A DNA stretch of 64,000 nucleotides, taken from Mobula hypostoma (Eukaryota). Below are positions 1 through 51,400 of the stretch, in pieces. How positions within the stretch are numbered: position 1 is the first letter of the stretch; each line of letters opens with the position of its first letter. The stretch is from NCBI RefSeq assembly GCF_963921235.1, contig NC_086107.1:111540001-111604000 (forward strand), read 5' to 3'. A model generated the notes under the pieces. The model searched no databases and was not told where the DNA came from. It saw only the letters and a list, made by a program, of their open reading frames with translations. The position numbers were made by a program, and so were the translations under genes.

Positions 1-427
1 ATTATTCAGTCCTTCCTCCACATTGTCAAATGCAAGCTGTCAGTTACGGAGATCAAACAGTTCCAAACTGCATTAATGCACTTTAAAGAAGTGATTGAGT
101 AACTGGGGCTGATAATCAGGCCTCACACGCAATCTGCTTCTTGTTTAGGAAGCTCCACAATTGCTTGCAAATATCTACGTGTGCATACTGGGTAAGCTAT
201 CCAAGACCTTTTATAGAAAACAATTAGCTTTATTTCCTCTTCAAAAAGACTCCAAATTAGATTAACTTTATTTGTCCCATGTAAATGAAACATAGAAGCA
301 TACAGTGAAATGGGTCAAGATTTAGGTTTATTTTGCACATTTACATCAAAACATACAGAAAAGTGCGTTGTTTGTGTTGAAAACCAACATAACTAAGTGT
401 TGTGCGTTCAATATTTCAATACTATTT

Positions 428-621
428 GGGGTGTATGGAGTGTCAGGGAGGGGTAGCACCTCTGGTGGGGGAACATGTCGCGTCCTTTTCAGGGCGGTTA
501 GTCCACCTTTGGTCCCCACCTGGCACTCAGCTCTCACCTGTGGCTCCCCGTAGCTATTTGCATACGACAGCGGCCACACCCCGGGCAACGGCTTCGACAA
601 GCCGGCTAAACCAGGTGAGGG
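428..621 (+). ncRNA. Putative HDV-like self-cleaving ribozyme with long J1/2 and an L3 hairpin insertion
   Basis: P1 GGGGUGU 428-434/ACACCCC 576-582; P2 531-541/610-621 (one bulge); P3 GGC 542-544/GCC 573-575; L3 starts UCCCCGU; P1.1 CC 546-547/GG 583-584; GCAA; P4 CGGCUU/AAGCCG; J4/2 GCUAA with candidate catalytic C606. Folded by eye. Confidence 0.65.
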
Positions 622-985
622 TAGCCGACGGGTCTCAAACCCTCGGTGAGATAGGGAGTTGTCTATCCCAGCATGTGAAGACAGACTCCGGCGGATTGAG
701 CGGACGAGACCTATAGAAGGTCCAACGGTCAAGAAGGCGGTCTCTGCAAGCGTTGTGGAACGTGTAGAGCACGACAAGACACGGAAGACGTCCTGATCAT
801 CCACTGCGCCTAGTCCCATCTCCAGCCATCTCGACTCTGTCTTGCCACTGGATCCAGATGGGAATTGGGAAGAGAGAGTGAGGCTGACGCTGCGCATCTC
901 TCCCTCACTTAAATCCAAATCTCGCGCTAGTCTCGACACCATCAATGGTGTCAAGGTCTTCATCGACGACGACGATGGACGAACA
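428..985 (+). mobile_element. Non-autonomous retroposon (RTE-type 5'UTR-derived), full length with TSD
   Basis: TSD actattt(g) at 421-427/8 and 986-992/3. GC-rich structured 5' part, short-repeat tail (gac)n...gaacaa, no credible ORF. RTE assignment is inferred from the architecture. Confidence 0.7.
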
Positions 986-2911: not shown

Positions 2912-5850
2912 GTGTCGGTCTATATTGGTCTATTTTTTAGCACTGGTCGCAACTCCAACCTAAAGCGAGGTTCATATCTGCACTAAAATTGATTTATTTT
3001 TAAAACCTTTCAAAACTCCTTACCCTAGTACTTTTTCCATCACACTAGGGTTGTTATCCTTAACTCCTGCGGCCTTCAATCTGAGCACACAACTTTAAGA
3101 CAGCGATGTCAGGTTTTGCAGAAAAATGTATTTTATTGTTACCTACCCTCAAGGCGATGCACCAGCAGTCCAGTACATGGTCAAAACATTGACGCATTCC
3201 AAGTGGGCACCATTTTGTCTTGTAATAACAACTTCATGCTACACACTACTTTTGCAAATACTGTGGAGAAATCAAATACAATGCCTGAAAAGTTAACCCT
3301 CTCCTTTCTAAGCCAGAATCTGTTTCTTAAAACATTCAGATTTGCAAAGATTCATCCGGATCACAAGTTCAGGATTTTCCCAGCCTGCTGGCTAAGTAAA
3401 GTATTTGCATGTTAACAATGATTTGAAGAGTGAACGGGAAATTTCCCACACCTTGTTGATAGCAGTAGGAATTAGAGGAGAAGTTTTATGGGTTGATAAA
3501 TTCACAAAGTGCTTGTCTAACACGTCATTGCTCTTTAGTGTTTATTCATACTTCATTTGCTGTGAAATAGCAGATGGAATTGAACATTGAGCAATTATCA
3601 GCGCCAATCCTCACTTCTGAGCTAATGATGGAACACCCACCACCCTCTGATGTGTAGAGTTACAGAGATTTACAGTCCTCTGCGTGAAGGAAATTCTCTG
3701 AACTCCAGCCCTAACCCGAAACTCTCCCCCTGAATTTGCCATGGCAAATCCTGTGTCAAAGTTCAAAGTAAATTTATTATCAGAGTTAATATGTGTCGCC
3801 CATAGACAACCCTGAGATTCATTTTCGTGCGGGCATACTCCCTAAATCTACAGAGTCATAACCATAGCAAAATCAATGAAAGACCGCCGAACTTGAGTAT
3901 TAAACCAGAACGTGGAAGACAACAAACTGTGCAAATACAAAAAGAAAGAATTAATAATAATAAATATATAAGCAATAAATATCGAGACCATGAGGTGAAG
4001 AGTTCTTGAAAATGAGTCCAGAGGTTGTGGGAACATTTCAATGAAGAGGCAAGAGAAGTTATCCCTTCAGTTCAAGAATCTGCTGGTTGAGGGGTAATAA
4101 CTGTTCCTGAGCCTGGTGGTGTGAGTCCTGACGCTCCTGAACCATCTCCCTGATGGCAGCAGTGAGGAAAGAATGAGTAGGGAGAAGAGAAGTCTATGAA
4201 GATGCTGGAGGAACTCAGCCGGTCAGGCAGCTTCTACGGAGAGGAATAAACAGTCGACATTTCGGGCTGACACCCTTCATCAGGTTCAGCAGTCCGAAAC
4301 TGGCGAGGACAGATAGGGAGTGATTTCATACAGAGCTCAGGGCTAACTTCTTTCCACAGAGGGCAGTGAGTAACTGGAATGAGCAGGTGCAGTGTCAAAA
4401 CCCAAGAGAGGTGCTTTGGAAAGGTTTGTGGAGAGGGAAGGCAGAGAGGATTATGAGCTGAACTCAGGCAACTGGCATTAGCAGGGAGAGATGCTGTGGA
4501 TGTGCTGGGATCTGTGTTGACCTGTTGGGCCATAAAGGACTTTTAGAAACATAGAAACATAGAAAACCTACAGCACAATACAGGCCCTTCGGCCCACAAA
4601 GCTGTGCCAAACGTGTCCTTACCTTAGAAATTGCCTAGCTTTTTCCCTGTTATATTTTTCTGTGATTCTATATGATATTATTGTGGCTAGCTCCACCACT
4701 TCCCCTGGCAACTCGTTCTGTATAAGCACCAACCCGTAGGTTAAGAAGTTGTCCTTCAGATCCTTTTTAAATCCTACCCATCTTGTGCTGACACGGCAAC
4801 ATCTTTGGTCGGACATTTGATCGCCTCAGTGGCTCGTGGCGGTGGACAGACTTTCGACTGTGGTTTGATGTTTAGTGTCCTCAGCGCTGAACGTGCTTTA
4901 CTAATTTTCACGATTTGATTGAGGTACTTCGGCGTGGAACTGATCCGTGGCTGAGGCCTGCAGCCATTGACGTAGCTCTGAACTGACTGAGCTGGTGACA
5001 TTGGCTCCTGGACCGGCCTCACTCTCCCCAGTAGCTCGTGGCTGTGGACTCATGCCTGGGGACTCTGTGACTCGATATTTAATGCTCTGTGTATTATTTG
5101 TTTGTGTTTTGATGTTAGTACAATTTTTTCTTCTTTTGCAAGTTTAATGGTCTTTGTTGTGTGGGGTTTTTCTTTAACTAGGTTCCATGGTGTTTCTTTG
5201 TTTTGTGGCTGCCTGCAGGAAGACAAATCTCGAGTTGTATACTGTATACATACTTCAATAATAAATGTACTTTGAACTTTGAAAGTAAGAATGTGCTGAT
5301 TTTAACTCTGGATCATTTTGTTATAACTATCAATTATCTGTAGGCTCTTATGCAATGGAAAATTTCATGCTTGGAGAGTTGAGGTTAATTGGCAGTGCTC
5401 CTTCACTGTTGTCAGATAGCAAGCTTCAGCCTACTGCCTGGCCAAGTGCAAACTTAGAAGTTTGTGCAGATTTGGCATGTCATCTAAAACTTTAACAAAC
5501 TTTTACAGATGCACAGTGGAGACTGGTTGCATCATGGCCTGGTATGGAAAAAGTAGTGGACACAGCCCAGTCCATCACAGGCAAAGCCCTCCCCACCACT
5601 GAGCACATCTACAAGGAATGCTGTCGCAATTAAGCAGCCTCCATCATCAAGGATCCCCGCTGTCCAAGCCGTGCTCTCTTCTTGCTGCTGCCAACTGGGA
5701 AGAAGGTACAGGAGCCTTAAGTCTCACACCACCAGGTTCAGGAACAGATATTACACGACAATCATCAGGCTCCTGAACCAATGTGGATAACTTCACTCAC
5801 CTCCACACTGTACTGATTCCACAACCTATGGACTCACTTGCAAGGTCTCT

Positions 5851-7357
5851 AAGACCATAGACCATAAGATATAGGAGCAGAAGTAGGCCATTCAGCCCAT
5901 CAAGTCTGCTCTGCCATTCAATCATGGGCTGATCCTATTCTTCCAGTCATCCCCACTCCCCTGCCTTCTCCCCATACCCTTTGATACCCTGGCTAATCAA
6001 GAACCTATCTATCTCTGCCTTAAATACACCCAATGATGGCCTCCACAGCTGCTTGTGGCAACAAATTCCACAAATTTACCACCCTCTGACTAAAGTAATT
6101 TCTCCGTATCTTAGCTCTAAATGGACGTCCTTCAATCCTGAAGTCATGCCCTCTTGTCCTAGAATCCCCTACCATGGGAAATAACTTTGCCATTATCTAA
6201 TCTGTTCAGGCCTTTTAACATTCAGAATGTTTCTATGAGATCTCCCTTCATTCTCCTGTACTCCAGGGAATACAGCCCAAGAGCTGCCAGACGTTCCTCA
6301 TAACGTAATCTTTTCATTCCTGGAATCATTCTCGTGAATCTTCTCTGAACCCTCTCCAATGTCGGTATATCCTTTCCAAAATAAGGAGCCTAAAACTGCA
6401 CACAATACTTCAAGTGTGGTCTTACGAGTTCCTTATAGAGCCTCAACATCCCTGCTCTTATATTCTATACCTCTCGAAATGAATGCCAACATTGTATTCA
6501 CCTTCTTCACCACCAACTCAATCTGGAGGTTAACCTTTAGGGTATTCTGCACAAGGACTCCCAAGTCCCTTTGCATCTCTGCATTTTGAATTCTCTCCCC
6601 ATCTAAATAATAGTCTGCCCATTTATTTCTTCCACCAACGTGCATGACCATACACTTTCCAACATTGTACTTCATTTGCCACTTCTTTGCCCATTCCCCT
6701 AAACTATCTAAGTCTCTCTGCAGTCTCTCTGTTTCCTCAACACTACCCACTCCTCCACCTATCTTTGTATCATCAGAAAATTTAGCCATAAATCCTTTAA
6801 TACAGTAGTCCAAATCATTGACATACATCGTAAACAACAACAATCCCAACACCAGCCCCTGTGGAACTCCACTGGTAACCAACAGCCAGCCAGAATAGGA
6901 TCCCTTTATTCCCGTTCTCTGTTTTCTGCCGATCAGCCAATGCTCCACCCACGCTAATAATTTCCCTGTAATTCCATGGGCTTTGATCTTGCTAAGCAGC
7001 CTTATGTGTGGCACCTTGTCAAAGGCCTTCTGAAAATCTAAGTACACCATGTCTACTGCATCTCCTTTGTCTACCCTGCTTGTAATTTCCTCAAAGAATT
7101 GCAGTAGGTTAGTCAGGCAGGAATTTCCTTTCAGGAAACCATGCTGGCTTTGGCCTATCTTGTCATATGCCTCTAGGTACTCCATAATCTCATCCCCAAC
7201 AATCGATTCCAACAACTTCCCAACCACTGATGTCAAGCCAGCAGGACTATAGTTTCCTTTCTGCTGCCTCCCACCCTTCTTAAATAGCAGAGTAACATTT
7301 GCAATATTCCAGTCATCCGGTAAAATGCCAGAATCTATCGATTCCTGAAAGATCATC
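5851..7357 (-). mobile_element. CR1-clade LINE, 3' portion (RT pseudogene plus tail)
   Basis: ORF 6433-7359 has CR1 RT motifs (QHGFLKG, YLDFQKAFDKVPH, SGVPQG, KFSDDTK); frameshifted C-terminus; short-repeat 3' tail at 5851. Confidence 0.95.
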
Positions 7358-8465
7358 ATTCATCAAATTAATTTAGTCAAATTAATTTCTCCAATTCCAG
7401 TCTTCGTACTAATATTAATTTCTTTGTGCACCCCATTTATTCTGAGCCTGTCTGTAGTCCACTTCGATTTCTAGCAGGTTTACTGTGTCTTCTTCCATGA
7501 AAAGAAACAGTAAATAAAATATTTATTTAATATCACTGCTTTTTCCTTATTTCTCAATATAATTTCTCCTTTCACATTAACTAGCTTTTTTTTTCATTTC
7601 TACATACAATCAGTTTTTTTTGGTTTTTCAGTAACTTATTCTTGTATTTTACTTTCTCTTTCCTCATTAATGCCTTGCCCTCCTTTTCTGAATTCTGAAA
7701 TCTTCCCATTCCTCAGGCTTACTGTACCTTTTGGCAACTTCAGAGAACCATTTTCTATATTCTTATACTGCCTTTAACTTCACTGACAACAATAGCTAGG
7801 CCATTTATCCTGCTGGGATTTCTTGCCTTAAACGGATACATACTACTTGCAAACTATGTAATAGTTCTTCAAAAGCTGGACATTGTTTACAGTTATACTT
7901 TGTAATGTAGTATCTCACAAATGCTTTATCCCTCCACAATTTGCTTGATTAACCCTATCTCATTACTTAACATTAGATCTAAGATAGCATGCTACCTCAT
8001 TGGTTGGAAAATGAAGGCCGATCTAGAAAACAAGTTTGCCATATTATATAAAAACGTAACAACTGGAATTCTGCGGATGCTGGAAATTCAAGCAACACAC
8101 ATCAAAGTTGCCGGCGAACGCAACTACATCTACATCTCATGTGCTCAGTATTATTTATTTATTTATGGTATTTTCACATTGGCTGTCTGTCTTTGTATGT
8201 AGTTTTTCATTGATTATATTGTATTCCTTTGTTTTACTGTGAATGCCCACAAGAAAAGGAATCTCCGGGTAGTATGTGGTGACATATACATACTTTGATC
8301 ATAAACTTACTTTGAACTTTGGAAGCAACAAGTTGATGCCTTGTCCTTGATTTCCGAAGAACCTTTGGATCGCAAAAGCAGCAGGATCCAATGGGTAGAT
8401 TAATTGGTCACATGGATGTAATGGGGGGAGGGCCGCGGACTCATTGGACTGGATGGCCCTGTTAG

Positions 8466-17137: not shown

Positions 17138-17470
17138 CAGTGGTATGTAAAAGTTTGGGCACCCCTGGTCAAAGTTTCTGTTACTGTGAATAGTTAAGTG
17201 AGTAGAAGATGAACTGATCTCCAAAAGTCATAAAGTGAAAGATGAAACATTCTTTTCGATATTTTAAGCAAGATTAGTGTATTATTTTTGTTCTGTACAA
17301 TTTTAGAGTGAAAAAAGGAAAGGAGCACCATGCAAAAGTTTGGGCACCCCGAGAGATTTGAGCTCTCAGATAACTTTTACCAAGGTCTCAGACCTTAATT
17401 AGCTTGTTAGGGCTACGGCTTGTTCACAGTCATCGTTAGGAAAGGCCAGGTGATGCAAATTTCAAAGCTT

Positions 17471-17478
17471 TATAAATA
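17471..17478 (+). promoter_or_regulatory. TATA box of the Tc1 transposase promoter
   Basis: tataaata located 46 nt upstream of the transposase ATG. Confidence 0.5.
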
Positions 17479-17516
17479 CCCTGACTCCTCAAACCTTGTC
17501 CCAACAATCAGCAGCC

Positions 17517-18537
17517 ATGGGCTCCTCTAAGCAGCTGCCTAGCACTCTGAAAGTTAAAATAAATGATTCCCACAAAGCAGGAGAAGGCTATAAGAAGATA
17601 GCAAAGCATTTTCAAGTAGCTGGTTCCTCAGTTCGTAATGTAATTAAGAAATGGCAGTTAACAGGAACGGTGGAGGTCAAGTTGAGGTCTAGAAGACCAA
17701 GAAAACTTTCCAAGAGAACTGCTCGTAGGATTGCTAGAAAGGCAAATCAAAACCCCTGTTTGACTGCAAAAGACATTCAGGAAGATTTAGCAGACTCTGG
17801 AGTGGTGGTGCACTGTTCTACTGTGCAGCGACACCTGCACAAATATGACCTTCATGGAAGAGTCATCAGAAGAAAACCTTTCCTGCGTCCTCCCCACAAA
17901 ATTCAGTGTCAGAAGTTTGCAAAGGAACATCTAATCAAGCCTGATGCATTTTGGAAACAAGTCCTGTGGACTGATGAAGTTAAAATAGAACTTTCTGGCC
18001 ATAATGAGCAAAGGTATGTTTGGAGAAAAAAGGATGCAGAATTTCATGAAAAGAACACCTCTCCAACTGTTAAGCATGGGGGTGGATCGATCATGCTTTG
18101 GGCTTGTGTTGCAGCCAGTGACACAGGGAGTATTTCACTGGTAGAGGGAAGAATGAATTCAATTAGATACTAGCAAATTCTGGAAGCAAACATCACACCA
18201 TCTGTAAAAAAGCTGAAGGTGAAAAGAGGATGGCTTCTACAACAGGATAATGATCCTAAACACACCTCAAAATCCACAATGGACTACCTCAAGGTGCAAG
18301 CTGAAGGTTTTGCCATGGCCCTCACAGTCCCCAGACCTAAACATCATCAAAAATCTGTGGATAGACCTCAAAAGAACAGTGCATGCAAGTCAGCCCAAGA
18401 ATCTCACAGAACTAGAAGCCTTTTGCAAGGAAGAATGGGCAAAAATCCCCTAAACAAGAATCGAAAGACTCTTAGCTGGCTACAGAAAGCATTTACAAGC
18501 TGTGATACTTGCCAAAGGGGGTGTTACTAAGTACCGA
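17517..18537 (+). pseudogene. Tc1 DD34E transposase pseudogene
   Basis: ATG 17517; N-terminal HTH region, [33 protein letters not shown](E>K)N, GGVTKY. Stop at 18171, frameshift ~18290, stop at 18451. After repairing the frameshift the D-to-E spacing is 34. Confidence 0.95.
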
Positions 18538-28990: not shown

Positions 28991-29056
28991 TTCCTCTGCT
29001 ACTGGACAATGAAACAATTACTTCACTATTAACAGTTCCAGTCAACAGAGAAATGT

Positions 29057-29635
29057 AAGGCCTCCACTGGTCAGGGTCGACCTTGGATGTTGTGTCCTAG
29101 CTGCCTTGGTATGCAAACCTGGGCAGTACAATATGGAGAGCAAGCTGTTGCCCATGTAACAAGCTCCCCCTCTCCACTAATCTGATGAACCCAAAGGAAT
29201 AGCAGAGACTGAACTATAGTTTGGCACCCCCAGCCTTGCAGGAGTCGCCAGTCAGCATTGAACTCAATGTAGGACTGCCTTAGGGACTCCAACTCCAGAT
29301 TTTTTTGTCTGGGTTTACTCCCGGAGTCTTCCCCATGAATGAGTATAGCCGCAAGGCAGCGGAGGTTTGCGATAAGAGTTTTCCTTCTCCTAGATGAGCT
29401 GCCAGCCACAGCTGACAAGCTCCATCTGCCCGAAGTGACTGGTTTTAACGCGCAAGTAAACTCGCACCTTAAGGTTGCTATAGCCGAGAATAGTAATGGG
29501 AATAAGCTCCCAATAGCGTGGGCCTCAAAAACCCTTTGACAACCAAGCCCAGCTCCTGGCCTTCACGTGTAGCTTGGCTACCATGCCTGGTGGAACTGTT
29601 TCTACTTACAGGAGAAACGACAAAGGCAGGTTACT
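29057..29635. mobile_element. RTE-type non-autonomous element with 5' inversion (same family as 31898-32465 and 44087-44669)
   Basis: TSD aacagagaaatgt (29044-29056)/aacagagaaatat (29636-29648); 3' part on the minus strand to ~29465, 5' part on the plus strand ~29467-29635. Confidence 0.8.
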
Positions 29636-29865
29636 AACAGAGAAATATGCTGGTATTAAACCTAAAACCTGCCAAATCAGTGCATACCTCTGCCGAAGGA
29701 GGTTCTCTATTTATGTGGTATGTCGTTGTTACAAGAGCCTCAGGACTTGCACCACCAAGTTCAAGAACAGTTCCTAACCCACAGCCATCAGACTCTTGAA
29801 CAAAAGGGGATAACTACACTCACTTACCCATCCATTGAGATGTTTCCACAACCAGTAATCTCACT

Positions 29866-31840: not shown

Positions 31841-31897
31841 TAAGCTTGTTGCTTACATATGTTTTTTTCCAGTGTTATAAGGACAAAGAAACTTTAA

Positions 31898-32465
31898 GGT
31901 GCATTAAGGTTGTTATAGCTGGGGGTGGTAATGGGGGTAAGCTCCCAGCACCTATTAAATGCCCCCAATGGCGTGCGCCTCAGATAGTCTCTGGCAACCA
32001 ACCCCAGGTCCTGGCCTTCATGTGGGGCTTAGCTACTGAGCCCGGTGGAACCATTCCTACTGACAGGAGAAGGGGCAAAGACGGGTTACTGGCACCTTCA
32101 AACCAGTCCCTTTGGGCAAATTGGGGCTCATCAGCTGTGGCTGGCTGCTCACCCAAGAGAAGGAAAACTGATCTGAAACCTTCCCGGCCTTGCGGGCTTA
32201 TCAGCTCAGGGGGAAGGCTTCGGGGGTAAACTCCAAGGGGAAAAGTCCGGAGCTGGAGTCCCTTAGGCAGTCCTATGCTCTGTTCGACGCTGACTGGCAA
32301 CTCCTGGTGCCAGCCTCTTTCGGTCTCTGCTGCTGGTTTGGGTTCATCAGATGCGTGGAGAGACGGAGCCTGCTATATGGGTAACAGCTTGCTCTCTATA
32401 TTGTACTGCCCTATCTAGACAGCCAGGCTGTGACGTCCGTGTTCAACCCTGACTGACAGAGTCGT
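31898..32465 (+). mobile_element. RTE-type non-autonomous element carrying a putative HDV-like ribozyme (31898-32068)
   Basis: Colinear with the reverse complement of 44087-44669. P2 TCCTG/CAGGA, P3 GCC/GGT, L3 TTCATGT, P1' GGAACC. Confidence 0.75.
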
Positions 32466-32779
32466 CAGAAGCACAAAGAATAGAAAGGAAGAAGAGGCAC
32501 GGTGATGTGGTTACCAGACTACTGATAATGGTAAATTTCATTGAAATTCCAACAGATAACAGCTAACCAATCAAATAGCCAGATTCAAGTAATGTGATGC
32601 CTGCCACTGAAAGCAAAAACTTTCCAGAAGAATACAGAGGCAATGGCAACCTCTGAAATACTGAACAATTATGTGTACATACATGATTCTATAAAAACAC
32701 AAATGAGTATAAGAAAGTTGAACTACAAGAATAGTAACTATTCTACAGCCCAATCCAACAACATCAACAAGATGAATTT

Positions 32780-33096
32780 TTATAATTAAGGCATCCGTTA
32801 GTCTTGCGAGACCATGGATCTGCGCCTGGAAAGTCTTCACTCTCCAGGACGCAGGCCTGGGCAAGGTTGTATGGAAGTCCGGCAGTTGCCCATGTTGCAA
32901 GTCTACCCTCTCTACGATACCGATGTTGTCCAAGGGAAGGGCAAAGGCCGATACAGCTTGGCACCGGTGTCGTCACAGAGTACTGTGTGGTTAAGTGCCT
33001 TGCTCAAGGACACAACACTCTGCCTCGGCTGGGGCTCGAACTCACGACCTTCAGGTCGCTAGTCGAATGCCTTAACCACTTGGCCACTTGCCCACG
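32780..33096 (-). mobile_element. tRNA-head SINE with CORE-like domain and RTE-type tail
   Basis: Minus strand gtggccaagtggttaaggc (A box), gagttcgagccc (B box), gtgtccttgagcaaggcacttaacc (CORE-like); TSD caagatgaattt (32768-32779)/caagatggattt (33097-33108). Confidence 0.8.
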
Positions 33097-43484: not shown

Positions 43485-44086
43485 CTCAGTAGGTCAGGGA
43501 ACATCTATGGAAAGGAAATAAACAGGCCGAGGCCCTTCATCCGTACTTGAAAGGGAGGAAAACGCCAGAAAAGGAAGACTGGGGGAGGGGGAGGAGTACA
43601 AGCTGGAAGGTGAAGGTTGAGACCGGGTGAGGCGGGGGGAATGAAGTGAGAAGCTGGGAGGTGTTAGGTGGATAAGGTGAGGGGCTGAAGAAGAAGGAAT
43701 CTGATAGGAGAAGAGAGTGGACCATGGGAGGAAGGGTAGGAGGAGAGGCACCAGTGATGATAAGCAGGTGAGGAGAAGAAGGGAGCCAGAATGGGGAAAG
43801 GAAGAGGAGAGAAGGGGGGTGGTTGAGAAATTGCCAGAAGCTGGAGATACTGATGCTCATGCTGTCATTTTGGAGGCTACCCACATGGAATATGAGATGT
43901 TGATCCTCCAACCTGAGAGCGGCCTCATTGTGCCAGTAGAGGATGCCAAGTCGGAATGGGAAAAAAGGGAAAGGAATTGAAATGGTTAGGCCTGATTTAC
44001 AATGGTATCTAAGCAGCAGACACTGTTGACTTTATGAAAGCTGACTGTATGCAGCTCCAGGCCTACTTTAATGCAATTAATTTAAC

Positions 44087-44669
44087 GGAGGCCCTCCATT
44101 GATCAGGGTCGACCATGGGTATTGTGTCCTAGATGCCTTTGTGATACGCAAGCCGGGACAGTACGATATGGAGAGCAAGCTGTTGCCCGTGCAGCAGGCT
44201 CACCCCTCCATGCATCTGATGAATCCAGAGGAACGGCGGAGGTCGATACGGTTTGGCACCAGCGGCATCACGGGATTCGCCAGTCAGTGTCAAACTCAAT
44301 GTAGGGCTGCCTTAGAGACTCCGGCTGGGGATTTTGCCCTCCCTGTGAGTGGGTGTAGCTGCAAGGCAGTGGAGGTTGGAGATCAGAGTTTTCCTTCTCC
44401 TGGATCAGCTACCAACCATGGCTGACCAACCCCATCTGCCCAAGGCGATGGTTTTAAGGTGCCAGTAACCAACCTTTGCCCGTTCTCCTGTCAGTGGAAA
44501 CAGCTCTGCCAGACTTAGTAACTTGACACACGTGAAGGCCAGCAGCTGGACTTAGTTGACAGAGGCTATTTGAGACACACTCCACTGGAGAATTTAAGGG
44601 GTGGTGGGAACTTATCCTCTCTAACCCCTCCCTCCACCTCACCACCAGCTAGAACAACCTTAAGGAACC
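44087..44669 (-). mobile_element. Full-length RTE-type non-autonomous element starting GGTTCC
   Basis: TSD aattaatttaac (44075-44086)/aactaatttaac (44670-44681); homologous to 31898-32465. Confidence 0.82.
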
Positions 44670-45865
44670 AACTAATTTAACTAATTAATTTAAGTGAAAT
44701 TCACTTGCAAATTAAATCTGAGGCAGTAACCAATACCTCATCCTCATCTCTTTCTTTGAAAATCCCCATCACCCTCCCTCTGCAGCCAAAGTCCAGGGTG
44801 CTTTCCTTGCTGATCTCACCATTCCCAATCTAACCACATCATCAGTTGCAAGTGCCTCCTCATTCTCAGTTACTTGAACCTCCCCCACTTTCGTGGATCT
44901 TCTTGACCCGTTCATTACTTTCAACTTCTATCTTAACTCCCTTTGCCCACACACGTGGCCATCGTCATTTCTAGCATGTCATCTGATGGCTTAACTGACA
45001 GGAACTTGGAAGACCAATTCAATGCCCCACAGAACTTGTTCTAGCAACACAAATGTACTTTTCACATAGCCATCTTGGTTTACCATTCCACATGAATTTT
45101 CTGTGACCCCCCTCCTCTGCATTGAAGATTTCTGCAAAATGCCATCTATGCATCTAGCATGGCCTCTTCTGACTTTCTCGAAGCAATCCCCATGATGCCG
45201 GAGAAATTCTTCTCTCAGCTACCATCGTGCAGGAGGTACTGAAGCCTCAAGTCCCACACCACCAGTGGGACTTGGCAGTGTGGAGGAACTGAGAGATCTT
45301 GGGGCAGTGTGGAGGGATTGAGAGATCTTGGGGTCCGTGTCGATAGGACACTCAAAGCTGAAGTGCAGGTTGAGAGTGTTGTTAAGAAGACATATGATGT
45401 GTTGGCATTCATCAACCATGGGATTGGGTTCAAGAGCCGTGAGGTAATGCTACAGCTATATAAGACACTTGGAGTACTGTGTTCAGTTCTGGTCACCTCA
45501 TTACAGGAAGGATGTGGATACTATAGAGAGAGTGCAGAGGAGATTTACAAGGATGTTGCCTGAATTGGAGGGCATACCTTATGAGAATAGGTTGAGTGAA
45601 CTTGGCTTTTTCTCCTTGGAGCAATGGAGGATGAGAGGTGACCTGAGAGAGGTGTATAAGATGATGAGGGGCATTGATCATGTGGATAGCCAGAGGCTTT
45701 TTCCCAGGGCTGAAATGACTAACACGAAGGGGCATAGTTTTAACGTGCTTGGAAATAGAGGATGTCAGGGGCAAGGTTTTCACACGGAGAGTGGTGGGTG
45801 TGTGGAACGCACTGCCAACGGTGTTGGTGGAAGCAGATACAATAGGGGCTTATAAAAGGCATATA

Positions 45866-46275: not shown

Positions 46276-47838
46276 TCCTGAATCATGGAGCATGTGCCTT
46301 TTGGCTTCTTTACCTCCTTCCTGACGGTAGCAATGAGAAGAGGGCACATCCTGGGTGATGGGGGGCCGTTAATAATGGATGCCACTGTTGTGTGAGGCAC
46401 CGCTCCTTGAAGATGTCTTCGATGCTACAGAGTCTAGCACTCATGATGGAGCTGTTGAATTTTACGACTTTCTGTGGCTCCCTTCGATCCTGAGCAGTAG
46501 TAGCCCACCCCCAACCCGATACCTTACGGTGATGCCGCCAGTCAGAATGCTCCTCACAGTACATCTGTAGAAGTTTTTGAGTGGTTCAAGAGCAGATGAT
46601 TCCCTTCAACCATTCTTGAACCAACCTGCTGAGCCTCAGACCGCCTGATGAAGATTCAAAAGGGGTGACAGTCAGCGGCCAACTATGCGATCGAATTTTA
46701 GACCTTGGCCCAGGAGAGTGGTTGGAACAGGGAGGCCTTGGCCATGCTATACCGCCACAGACTCCAAGATGAACTGAAGGATGCCCTCACCTTGGGAGGG
46801 CTGGCAGAAAACTTAGAGGTTCTCACAGACCAATCCATCTGTCTTGATAATCGTCTGGCCAAGCGAAAGTGGGATCATTTCAGGTGGTTGAAGAGAGCCG
46901 GTCCAAGCCCGGTCCCTACACATCTCAGTTCCACTCCCCAACCTCGGGCCATCACCAGCCCGTCGCCTGTGCAAGATCCCGTCGAGCCCACGCAGGTTGG
47001 TTGCACTAGACCCTCCGCCGACGAGAGGTCTCGGTGTCGGAGTCAATGCTGCTTTTACTGTGGGGTAGCAGGTCACCTGCGGGCCGAATGTCTGAAGCTG
47101 CAGCCAGCTGGGGAACTGCTAAGTGTCAGGAGGGCTGTGGCAGTAGCAGCCACTATGCCCAATCCCATGGATCCTGGTTTTGTGCTGAAGGAGGAGTTCG
47201 CCTGGGGTAAGAACTTGAGGCCTTTGGGGGCAGCGAGTAATTCTCTGGATTTAGAAACCATCCCTCGGCTCGACATACCACTGCAAGATTTGAGCCAGTC
47301 ATTGCCCACTAGGTTCCAGGCAGATTCAGCAACAAACTGCAGAATTACAAATGGGGAAAGGGGATCATGTGGAAGACATTAGTTTCTACATTATTGACTC
47401 TCCACTCATCCCCCTGATCCTCAGGCACCCTTGGCTGTCCCAGCATAACCCATCCATGGATGGAGAGAGGGAAGAATCATCGCTTGGTCCAGACATTGTG
47501 AGAGGCTTTGTTTACAGCGTGGTGTTCTGACACCCAGACTCTTTGGTGTCCAACGACCTATAAGGGGTCAGCCTTCGGTGCAAGGAAGCCTAAGTCCTTC
47601 TGGAGACCTAGTCCAGTCCTCAAGAGCAGACAAGCCGGTTCTGACACAGGACAGTGCCAGTCCTGACACAGTCTAGTCATAATCCCACAGGACCCAGAGA
47701 GAGGGAATTTCTAGGTCAGGAGAAGTCCAAGGACATGCCAGGCAGTCTGGGAGACTTGCCGCTGAGCTGAAGGGAACCAGCTGCCAGGTCTTGAGGAAGG
47801 GAAAGTCTCCTTTACGCCGATCCCATAATCACATAATA

Positions 47839-48466
47839 GGCGGGAGGAGAAGATGGCAGTGCGCCACGCGTGCGGAGCTCTCCGGTGAAAAATGATGTCG
47901 TATCTGTTAAATAGGGGCTGTGGACAATTCTGATTTGATGGAGAGTGGACGTGAAAGCACAGAGGAACATCTGGAGAAATTTCTGAAACGCTTGTCCGCT
48001 ACTGTTGTTACTGTGTGGTCGGGAATCTTTCGGAGGGTAGGCCTCAAAATCCCCGGCCTTGCCTGCTTTTGGTGACCGAGAAGGAGGTCGAATCGTTCGG
48101 CAGAGATGCCGCTCAGCACTCGGTGTCGGAGAGCTGATCAGAGCTCAAAGTTTTCAGATGACTCAGAGTCGGATTGTGGTCGGCATGGCAGGGAGAGTTT
48201 TTCTTCCCTCTCCCGTCTGCGTGAGATGTGGGACATTTGAGAAACTTTGAACTTTACTGTACTCACGGACTTCTTCATCAAGTTATGGTATTGTTACACT
48301 GTTTGTAACTATATGTATGATTATGTGGTTTTGTCAGTTTTTTCAGTCTTGGTATGTCCTGTGTTTTGTGATATCACACCGGAGGAAATATTGTATCATT
48401 TCTTAATGCATGCATTACTAAATGACAATAAAAGGGGACTACGTGTCTTCATAATCTAATAATCTA
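47839..48466 (+). mobile_element. Non-autonomous LINE-tail element inserted in Gypsy pol
   Basis: Starts ggaggagaagatggc, ends aataaa...(taatc)n; interrupts the Gypsy sequence. Confidence 0.65.
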
Positions 48467-51400
48467 ACCCACTTTCCCAGCGATGCAAGAACGCTCTGTA
48501 AGGCCTTGCTGCCGCTGCCTGTGGACGCAGACGGGGAGTCGGGCCCTGACTTGGCCATTGTTTGCACAGATGAAGTTTGTGAGCTCAAGGAGAGATCTCT
48601 GAAACCTGTCGAAGCATCCCGTCACCAAACAAGGCTCAGTAGTCGCCCTTAAAGGAAGGTCCCGATGAGACTGCAATACCCAAACCGGCTGAAATCCCCT
48701 CTGTTTACAAGGACCCGTAGAGGAGGTCTTCAGCAAGGGAAAGGCCGCACTGACCCTATGACTGCACCATAGACCAGCTGCCCGGTACTTGTCCTCTGCA
48801 GGGTTGTTTGCACGCGCTCTTAGGCCCACAGAGAGACACCATGGAGGAATATATAAAGGAAGCTCTTGTCACGGGCTTCATTCAGCCCTCCAGCTTTCCC
48901 ACTAGCACAGGTTTTTTCTTCATACAGAAGAAAAATGGGAGCCTGCTTCTTTGCATCGATTACAGGGGATTAAACCACATAATGATCAAGAATCGCTACC
49001 CTTTTCCTCTTATTATCTTGGAGGTGTTCCTAAGGGGGAGGGGATTCACAAAATTAGACCTCCAGAGTGCCTACAATCTGGTCTGTATGAGGGAGGGCGG
49101 TGAGTGGAAGACAGCATTCAATACACTGACAGGGCACTATGAGTACCTGGTTATACCCATTGGCCTTTTGAATGCCTCAGCCATTTTCCAAGCCTTTATA
49201 AACGACGTGCTCCGGGATGCTCTCCATTAGTATGCCTTTGTTTACCTGGGTGATATCCTAATCTTCTCGAAGTCCACGGAGGAGCACATCGCTCATGTCA
49301 GAGAAATTCTAAAGAGGCTTCTAGCCCATGGGCTTTTCGTCAGGTTGGAGAAGTCCGAGTTTCATGTGACGACTGTTTCATTTTTGAGTTTCATTATCTC
49401 TCATGGTAATCTCGAGATGGACCTTACCAAGACCCAGGCAGTCAGAGACTGGCCACCACCATCCAGCATCAAACAGGTCCAACAATTCCTGGGGTTTGCT
49501 AAATTCTACCGGAAGTTTGTCAGGAACGTCAGCTTGGTGGCGGGTCTGCTGGTGGCCCTAAGAAATCCCTTTTGTCTGGACTGCTGAAGCAGAGGTTTCT
49601 TTTCCAGAGATTAAACAGCAGGTTACTGCAGCTCCCATCTTGGTTTCTCCTAACCCAGACCTTCCTTCCATTGTCAAAGTGGATGCCTCAGACATTGGAG
49701 TAGGTGCCGTCTTGTCTGAACAATCACCTTTGGACAGTAAACTGCACCCGTGTGCATTCTTCTCTGGGTGGCTATTCCCGGCAGCGAGGAACTATGACAT
49801 TGGGAATCAGGATTTTCTTGCAGTTAAATCAGCTTTGGAGGAATGGCATCTCTGGCTGGCGGGGGCCAAGAACCCTTTCACTGTTGGGACTGACCATAAG
49901 AACCTGGCCTATATTCAGGAGGCCAAGAGGCTGAATTCCAGGCAGGCCAGGTGGTCTTTGTTTTTTAACCGGTTTCATTTCATCCTGACCTATTGACCGA
50001 GGTCTGAGAACCAGAAGCCAGATGTTCTGTCCTGTCCATTTGACGAACCGGAATGTGAGGAGCAGCCTTCCATTGTTTTGTCCCAAGCCAGGATGGTAGT
50101 GCCAATTTGTTGGGGAATCAACACCCTTAATCACAAGGCCCAAGCACAAGGGGGGATTCCTGCGAACAGTCCTGTGGGTTGACTGTTTGTCCCTAGTCCC
50201 ATCCGGTCCCAGCTACTGCAATGGAGGCATTTGTCAAGAATGACCTCACACCCAGGGATTGCTGAGACCCTCGGGTTTATCAAGAGGATGTGCTAGTGGC
50301 CTGGAATGACAAGAGAAGTTTGGCAGTACAGGCAGGCAACGAGGCGTGTGCCCAGAACAAGGAGTCCCATATCTGACCTCAAGGGCCCCTCCATCCCCGA
50401 CTGGTTCCAAAAAGACCTTGGGCACACACCTTGATTTCTCGCCATTCTAAGGGGAAGTCAGTCATCATGGTGGCTTTTGATTAGTTTTCAAAAGCCTGCA
50501 AGTTCATTGCCTTGGAGAAGCTACCTTCTGTGCCAGAGGTGGCCCAGGTTGTCCTGGACCAGGCCTTCATGGTCCACAGATTCCCAGTGGGCGTTGTCTC
50601 TGGTCATGGTCCACAATTCTCATCACATTTCTGGAAGGCTTTCAGTAAGCTGACTGGGGCAACAGCAAGCTTTTCCATTGAGCTTCACACACTGTCCAAC
50701 AACAAGACAGAGCAGATCAACAAGATTTAGAGCGTACCTTGAATGCCTGATCTCAGAAAGACCAGATGAGTGGTGCGGCCATTTGATGTGGGCTGAGATC
50801 GCCCACAACACCTTGCAGCATTTGGTGCACGGGATGTCTCCGTTTGAGTGCCGAATCGGTTATCTTCCATGTCTCTTTTCAGAACAAGAACTTGAGGTGG
50901 GGGTCCCTGCTGCAGAAGATTTTGTCCAATGCTGCATGGAGAAATGGTTGAAGGTAAGAGAGATTTTGCTGGCCTCTACCTGGAGAGCAGAGACTAAGGC
51001 AAACTGAAGGAGAAGTCTGGGACTCGCATTGCAACCTGGGCAACAGGTCTGGCTGCCTTTTCATGATATACCTCTCCATGAAGAATCTAGAAAGTTGGTG
51101 CCCAATTTCATTGGTCCCTTTAAGATCCTGAGGAAATTAAACCTGGTGGCTTATACCTTGCAGTTCCCCAAGACTCTAAAGATCAACCCCACCTCCCGCA
51201 TCTCTAATTTAAAGCCTGACTTCAGCAGCACCTTAGCCCTGCCACCAGCAGCCCCACTACCACCCAGCTTTATCGATGGGAGCAGGTCTTCTTGGTGAAA
51301 AGACTCTTGGACTCGCATACTGATTGAGGTGTTCAGCAATACCTAGTGGACTGGGAGGAATTCGGACTGGAGAAAAGGTGCTGGGTGCCCAAAGTGACAT

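What the first reader, a model, noticed from the sequence alone, without database searches (positions are those of the whole stretch)
44484..44681. TSD-defined 5' end coincides with the predicted ribozyme cleavage site
The 12-bp TSD (44075-44086/44670-44681) makes 44669 the first base of the minus-strand element. That end reads GGTTCC, the exact complement of the P1' GGAACC preserved in the 31898 copy. Together with 428, two independent insertions start at a predicted G1. Inference: these elements need no internal Pol III promoter; they would be cut out of read-through transcripts by the ribozyme and mobilised in trans by RTE proteins.
Basis: partly seen in the sequence, partly recalled or inferred. 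Interest (0 to 1): 0.72.

Follow-up and report, generated by a model that had tools for sequence, protein, structure and literature searches.

The report
Ribozyme-headed short RTE retroelement, decayed copy
This is an old, mutated copy of an abundant short jumping element that starts at, or within ten bases of, the predicted cut site of a hepatitis-delta-type self-cutting RNA, a known way for such elements to free themselves from host transcripts, here with an unusual extra hairpin in the predicted catalytic loop.

Summary
Partly confirmed. 44087-44669(-) is a decayed copy of a high-copy, non-coding element made of the two ends of an RTE LINE, without Pol III boxes; family homology stops at the 44669 junction. 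The duplication is 11/12, not exact, and extends over 44669 itself. GGTTCC does complement GGAACC, but only across copies: the window's two other copies begin GGTGCA and CGCACC, one has 7 extra bases, and a rival strand at position 11 pairs 5/6 in all three. So G1 = position 1 is likely, not shown. The 428 element, a different RTE lineage, is clean: a perfect 7-bp P1 starts at its junction (0 of 60 shuffled windows). A 5'-inverted third copy runs to within a few bases of the same end. Ribozyme release of promoterless non-autonomous LINEs is published (R2 SIDEs, RTE, Perere-3). Unusual: both lineages carry a 19-21-base insert after L3, missed by Rfam and not found in my searches; this scan noted it, and RTE 5' inversions, elsewhere in this genome. 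Cleavage, read-through and the partner LINE are untested.

The parts
44087..44669 (-). Non-autonomous bipartite RTE-derived element (family X), full-length decayed copy, 72-76% identical over its head to the two other window copies
44670..44681 (.). Upstream TSD copy (11/12; extendable over 44669; rival exact 11-mer at 44683-44693)
44075..44086 (.). Downstream TSD copy
44664..44669 (-). GGTTCC, predicted P1 5' strand; predicted G1 = 44669
44654..44659 (-). Rival P1 5' strand (element positions 11-16), 5/6 pairs in 3 of 3 copies, one G-G mismatch
44530..44543 (-). Predicted P2 5' strand (decayed), P3 5' strand GCC and 7-base L3 identical to that of CPEB3
44511..44529 (-). 19-base insert between L3 and P3' (7-bp hairpin in the 31898 copy; 4/7 here)
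44501..44510 (-). Predicted P3', P1' (decayed to AGAGCT at 44507-44502) and the P1.1 G at 44501
44469..44500 (-). Predicted P4 hairpin, catalytic C at 44478 followed by AAAG (invariant in 3 of 3 copies), P2' (2/4 here)
44380..44442 (-). [quoted passage not shown]
44087..44135 (-). 3' tail with a short predicted hairpin, shared with the SINE at 32785-33095; inferred RTE 3' end
31898..32468 (+). Second family X copy; P1' GGAACC at 32047-32052; begins GGTGCA; TSD 31879-31890 / 32469-32480 with 7 extra bases (31891-31897)
29055..29635 (-). Third family X copy with a 5' inversion: 3' part 29055-~29463 on minus, head 29464-29635 flipped; exact 11-base TSD 29044-29054 / 29636-29646
428..985 (+). Unrelated bipartite RTE element (RTE-3_AMi / RTE-3_PM / WALLSI type); P1 428-434 with 576-582, L3 545-551, 21-base insert 552-572, GG 583-584, catalytic C 606; TSD 421-427 / 986-992

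Best explanation
The element at 44087-44669 is a decayed copy of a non-coding retroelement built from the two ends of an RTE-type LINE, whose first ~200 bases are predicted to fold as an HDV-like ribozyme that likely cut the ancestral RNA out of host transcripts at position 1 before an autonomous RTE protein would have inserted it. Shown: element limits, TSD, high copy number, RTE-type UTR domain, no Pol III boxes, 5' inversion of one copy. Predicted from pairing: the HDV fold (P1, P2, P3, 7-base L3, P1.1 G, P4, C-A-A-A) with a ~20-base hairpin between L3 and P3'. Inferred: self-cleavage at G1, co-transcription from host promoters, TPRT in trans, untemplated or target-derived extra bases at some 5' junctions (7 in the 31898 copy), and twin priming for the inverted copy. 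This copy is likely dead (P2 2/4, P1 with one mismatch and two wobbles).
For: Family 5' limit at 44669 by TSD, pairwise alignment and depth in 4 of 4 runs. Core kept across three copies 72-77% identical: P3 3/3 in all, L3 unchanged in 2 of 3, P4 4-5/5, C-AAAG invariant; L3 and the G-U after P1' equal the CPEB3 core. P1' variants fit CpG decay of GGCGGAACCG, and the majority base at 44504 in 3 of 4 runs restores the second A (66%, 86%, 92%; 40% in X16). GGTTCC/GGAACC is by far the best duplex tried (-8.0 vs -2.6 to -3.7 kcal/mol). The 428 element passes a strict HDV descriptor with G1 = 428; 0 of 60 shuffled windows give any hit. The inverted copy's flipped arm reaches position 2-5. The UTR domain lies upstream of an endonuclease ORF in L017, whose longer homologues are ~1000-residue EN+RT proteins. 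10-12 bp is the TSD peak of RTE elements.
Against: No single family X copy passes the strict descriptor; the loose one paired the 44669 and 29464 cores with other upstream strands and missed 31898. Only 1 of 3 copies reads GGTTCC; a rough star-tree estimate gives the ancestral positions 3-4 as CG 0.71, TT 0.03 with all copies, and TG 0.45, TT 0.45 without the junction-bound inverted copy. The position-11 strand pairs as well or better within copies. One of two non-inverted copies has 7 bases upstream of position 1. No Rfam match. The nested folds of the three family X cores are no more stable than shuffles (z 0.38, -0.27, 1.23; only 428 reaches -2.64). Two extra bases lie between C-AAA and P2'. 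No autonomous partner was found.
Confidence: 0.6

Rival explanations
1. The ribozyme is real but P1 uses the strand at positions 11-16, or both strands alternately; position 1 would then be a transcription start or a second cut site, and the exact GGTTCC of this copy partly luck.
For: Position-11 strand pairs 5/6 in 3 of 3 copies; TG/CA pattern at positions 3-4 of the other two copies looks like CpG decay; an earlier scan note speaks of a 'doubled cut-site strand' (e1-7813318; unchecked).
Against: It carries a fixed G-G mismatch (-3.0 to -3.7 kcal/mol); all three copies extend to position 1-5, none starts at 11; in the 428 lineage G1 is the first base.
Confidence: 0.17
2. The 5' end is set by an internal Pol II promoter in the RTE 5' UTR (as in L1, or together with a ribozyme as in trypanosome Pr77), so read-through is not needed.
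For: PMC5786205 holds that bipartite LINEs are very likely Pol II transcripts and that LINE 5' extremes drive transcription; Pr77 activates transcription and L1Tc has an HDV-like ribozyme.
Against: A promoter alone does not explain a 7/7 P1 beginning at base 1 of the 428 element with a complete HDV core; RTE elements are described as promoterless in PMC6765202. I did not test for Pol II promoters.
Confidence: 0.15
3. Family X has no HDV-like ribozyme; the fold is read into decayed copies.
For: No strict descriptor hit, no Rfam hit and unremarkable folding z-scores for family X; only three copies, no covariation test possible.
Against: All core elements occur in HDV order with a CPEB3-identical L3, and an unrelated RTE element in the same window has the same layout with a same-sized insert.
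Confidence: 0.08

Closest known systems
Bipartite non-autonomous RTE LINEs (RTESINE1/2, WALLSI3, MAR4_MD, RTE-N1/N2_Lch, Bov-A; PMC5786205, main text parts 1-4 of 5 and supplement passages read; PMC7245038, passages)
   Same: 5' UTR plus 3' tail of an RTE, no ORF, no RNA-derived head, keeps the LINE's 5' end; the paper already links this to a 5' ribozyme. By eye, the 428 element matches printed stretches of RTE-3_AMi and RTE-3_PM, and family X matches RTE-7_AMi 235-280, RTE-3_BF 325-414 and RTE-12_AMi 134-237.
   Different: No ribozyme fold is given for these in what I read; the parent LINE of family X was not found; host lineage differs.
R2 SIDEs and R2/R1 hybrid SIDEs of Drosophila (PMC3414825, abstract and Discussion read; PMC3774820, passages and section 16)
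   Same: HDV-like ribozyme plus LINE 3' end, released from a co-transcript, mobilised in trans; 5' junctions often carry extra bases that are not inherited.
   Different: Site-specific in 28S rDNA with Pol I co-transcription; cleavage shown by experiment; no L3 insert mentioned in what I read.
HDV-like ribozymes at 5' ends of RTE, Baggins, R4 and L1Tc elements (Ruminski et al. 2011, not held; known only through PMC6765202, PMC3774820, PMC5786205)
   Same: Same clade, same position, same proposed role.
   Different: Described peripheral domains are in J1/2 and P4; here there is an added ~20-base hairpin after L3.
Twister T-variants of Perere-3 (RTE clade), Schistosoma mansoni (PMC8501958, passages read)
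   Same: Uses the very argument of this finding: TSDs abut the cleavage site in a randomly inserting RTE.
   Different: Twister, autonomous elements, activity tested.
CPEB3 ribozyme (bioRxiv 10.1101/2022.09.22.508989, passages read)
   Same: Same 7-base L3 and G-U after P1' with a single G-C pair in P1.1.
   Different: Single-copy, compact, 7-base L3 closes directly on P3; no insert.

Membership tests
Bipartite non-autonomous RTE LINE | 5' part homologous to an RTE 5' UTR | tested here: met
   ~60-base domain at 78-81% identity to metagenome loci, upstream of an EN ORF in L017; motif occurs 76 times in the PMC5786205 supplement
Bipartite non-autonomous RTE LINE | 3' tail shared with an autonomous RTE | tested here: inconclusive
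   428: matches RTE-3_AMi 3854-3893 by eye. Family X: tail shared with a SINE in the window, but no autonomous partner seen
Bipartite non-autonomous RTE LINE | No ORF, no Pol III head | tested here: met
   No sense-strand coding ORF recognised; best B box has 3-4 mismatches against 1 in control SINEs (recalled consensus); no tRNA gene
Bipartite non-autonomous RTE LINE | TSD of about 7-15 bp | tested here: met
   12-13, 12, 11 and 7-8 bases in 4 of 4 insertions; RTE range
HDV-like ribozyme | P1 of 6-7 bp starting at the cleavage-site G | tested here: inconclusive
   428: 7/7. Family X: 5/6, 4/6, 3/6 within copies, 6/6 across copies, rival strand at position 11
HDV-like ribozyme | P2, P3, P1.1 and P4 in nested double-pseudoknot order | tested here: met
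   P3 3/3 in 3 of 3; P2 4/4 in 2 of 3; C22-G38 in 2 of 3; P4 4-5/5; complete in 428. Pairing counts only, no covariation test
HDV-like ribozyme | L3 of 7-8 bases closing directly on P3 | tested here: not met
   Descriptor with 0-2 extra bases finds nothing; inserts are 19, 20 and 21 bases
HDV-like ribozyme | Catalytic C in J4/2 | tested here: met
   C-AAAG invariant in 3 of 3 copies; C606 in the 428 element
HDV-like ribozyme | Match to Rfam HDV/CPEB3 models | tested here: not met
   No such hit at E up to 1 in the whole window
HDV-like ribozyme | Self-cleavage leaving 5'-OH | not testable with these tools
   needs bench assay
SINE (Pol III, RNA-derived head) | Internal A and B boxes | tested here: not met

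The most novel reading that the evidence does not exclude
Vertebrate RTE lineages carry an overlooked, active subclass of HDV-like ribozyme with a ~20-base hairpin inserted into the catalytic L3 loop. It is invisible to standard models, is shared by at least two unrelated RTE lineages, sets the 5' ends of thousands of promoterless insertions, and in family X may choose between two cut-site strands ten bases apart; twin-primed copies record the cleaved RNA end independently of the TSD.
Probability: 0.35. Interest if true: 0.62.

Novelty: new variant of a known kind. Interest (0 to 1): 0.38.

Why it matters
The coincidence of 5' end and cut site only adds a vertebrate example to a published mechanism. 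If the fold with an insert after L3 is active, it widens the HDV-like family at a loop regarded as compact core, means that descriptor and Rfam searches undercount self-cleaving RNAs in vertebrate genomes, and implies that young intronic copies could cut host pre-mRNAs.

Tried and rejected
No whole genome is held, so copy starts could not be plotted. Family-specific patterns found 0 matches in metagenome contigs, prokaryote genomes and viral contigs. A UTR motif gave 120 metagenome and 2 viral loci; these share only a ~60-base domain (15 and 35 BLAST hits for two of six queries, none for the other four), 0 of 122 had an HDV descriptor hit upstream, and the two viral loci look like chance matches inside an unrelated ORF. 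Empty site: not found; contigs of organisms B, C and G span both junctions, and none of the 15 joints shown (980 not shown) skips the element. Loose ends at 44669 were not among the 24 rows shown (3921 not shown). No RNA holder listed. No RTE coding remnant in the window by tblastn with the L017 ORF (one hit, E 0.68). An alternative fold without the insert (P3' two bases after L3) was rejected by inspection: no G follows to form P1.1 and the cut base would be U. The bacterial promoter scan is irrelevant to this host. Ruminski 2011 could not be read. Look-ups of earlier notes by sequence returned nothing.

Full report
What is there. 44087-44669 on the minus strand is one of three copies of a repeat (family X) in the window; the others are 31898-32468 (+) and a rearranged copy at 29055-29635. 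Their heads are 72-77% identical. The element at 428-985 is a different family (no BLAST match). Earlier scan notes call the host a cartilaginous fish (not checked). Contigs of four runs from four organisms pile up on 44059-44670, up to about 290,000 summed depth against 17 in unique flank in X1, so the family is highly repeated; the tool warns that this is no copy number. Contigs from organisms B, C and G span both junctions, so this insertion is older than their split and no empty site was seen.

The TSD. The repeat extends over 44074/44669, so the predicted G1 is ambiguous between target and element; the same holds for G428. An exact 11-mer at 44683-44693 is a rival upstream copy that would leave 13 extra bases. 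The repeat is beyond chance: 3 of 3000 random and 26 of 1370 AT-matched pairs reach the score. Homology fixes the same end: the local alignment with the second copy starts at 44669/31898, and depth drops 14- to 74-fold between bins 44620-44670 and 44671-44721 in 4 of 4 runs. The second copy's TSD ends 7 bases before position 1.

The ribozyme. In HDV order the family X copies show P2, P3 (GCC with GGC/GGT), a 7-base L3, an insert, P1', a G for P1.1, a P4 hairpin and an invariant C-AAAG. L3 and the G-U after P1' equal the CPEB3 core as numbered in bioRxiv 10.1101/2022.09.22.508989. The P1' variants (AGAGCT, GGAACC, GGAACT) with their neighbours fit CpG decay of one ancestral string (inference), and family majority letters restore one A of P1' in 3 of 4 runs and the P2 C at 44543. 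No single family X copy passes my strict descriptor. The 428 element does: 7/7 P1 from G428, with 0 hits in 60 shuffled windows, but only when a 21-base insert after L3 is allowed; with a canonical loop nothing in the window is found, and Rfam finds no HDV or CPEB3 match. The descriptor is my own, from recalled HDV features, and was shaped after seeing these elements, so the shuffle result is somewhat flattering.

The weak point. GGTTCC is the only exact complement of GGAACC from -300 to +125 and the strongest duplex tried, but only 1 of 3 copies has it; the others read GGTGCA and CGCACC. TG and CA at positions 3-4 look like CpG decay: a rough estimate gives CG 0.71 and TT 0.03 with three copies, TG 0.45 and TT 0.45 if the inverted copy, whose first bases lie in a junction, is left out. 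A second strand at positions 11-16 pairs 5/6 in all three copies, with a fixed G-G mismatch. Position 1 stays the better guess because all copies reach it, none starts at 11, and the 428 lineage starts at G1, but three copies cannot settle it and no further family X heads could be fetched.

A third witness. The copy at 29055-29635 has an exact 11-base TSD, a normal 3' part and a flipped head, the anatomy of twin priming (PMC2912911). Its flipped arm runs to position 2, or to 5 on a more cautious reading of the junction. If the second cDNA ran off the template, this records an RNA end at about position 1 without using the TSD (inference).

RTE ancestry and promoter. Positions ~228-290 match the conserved RTE 5'-UTR domain of PMC5786205 (by eye) and, at 78-81%, metagenome loci; in L017 the domain precedes an endonuclease ORF (Pfam PF03372, E 1.2e-11) whose 50 longer homologues are mostly ~1000-residue EN+RT proteins. 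The 428 element matches printed RTE-3_AMi and RTE-3_PM stretches at both ends by eye. Neither has Pol III boxes, while control SINEs in the window do. An internal Pol II promoter was not tested and is not excluded. No RNA evidence was obtained.

Mechanism. Most likely the ancestral RNA was transcribed as part of a host Pol II transcript, cut itself at G1, and was inserted by an RTE protein recognising its 3' tail, with variable 5' joining. All three steps are inferred. This copy is likely inactive.

What is known. The model is in print: for R2 SIDEs (PMC3414825), for RTE and Baggins elements and some non-autonomous elements (PMC6765202), for cleavage at RTE 5' junctions (PMC3774820), for bipartite RTEs keeping their 5' ends (PMC5786205), and with the TSD argument for Perere-3 (PMC8501958). 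The insert after L3 did not turn up in three searches or in the parts read of PMC4908430 and PMC3774820; Ruminski 2011 and its supplement, the likeliest place, could not be read. This scan noted the insert three times and RTE 5' inversions twice elsewhere in this genome; these are unchecked notes, not support.

Verdict. Observation partly confirmed; interpretation plausible but known. The element works like an R2 SIDE and files as a bipartite non-autonomous RTE (partner not found). Its ribozyme is predicted to work like HDV/CPEB3 but fails the compact-L3 feature, hence a new variant of a known kind. Interest 0.38.

Noticed in passing
window 29044-29646: Family X copy with a 5' inversion, exact 11-base TSD, a 5-6 base overlap at the inversion point and a possible 2-base microhomology: twin-priming anatomy in a trans-mobilised RTE derivative. 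PMC4245944 and PMC2912911 (passages) describe 5' inversion as mostly L1 and rare in trans-mobilised elements; earlier scan notes report it for RTE LINEs of this genome.
   Followed up: partly
window 552-572, 44511-44529, 32024-32043: 19-21 base insert after L3 in two RTE lineages with unrelated sequence; perfect 7-bp hairpin in the 31898 copy.
   Followed up: partly
window 32785-33095 (-): SINE with A and B boxes followed by a stretch homologous to the 3' third of family X (score 84, shuffle maximum 32 of 200): head plus ribozyme-less RTE piece, as PMC5786205 predicts.
   Followed up: partly
window 44670-44693: The upstream target sequence is present twice in tandem (12-13 and 11 bases); either a second duplication at the 5' junction or a pre-existing repeat.
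   Followed up: no
window 421-428 and 44669-44681: In both elements the predicted G1 equals the last base of the extended TSD (1-base microhomology at the 5' junction).
   Followed up: no
L004, L006, L009-L011, L016, L021, L022, L097, L107 and others, 100-200 bases upstream of the motif: Short repeated elements with the same RTE UTR domain and fairly uniform G-rich 5' starts in animal-like contigs of metagenomes; no hit with my HDV descriptor.
   Followed up: no
L017 1-2401 (-): 5' part of an RTE-like LINE: UTR domain followed by an open endonuclease frame whose reading begins upstream of the first ATG.
   Followed up: partly
window 17454-18173, 46702-49230, 5855-7359 and similar: By eye, a Tc1-like transposase remnant, Ty3/gypsy-like gag/pol remnants and many CR1/L2-type RT fragments; identities recalled, not searched.
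   Followed up: no
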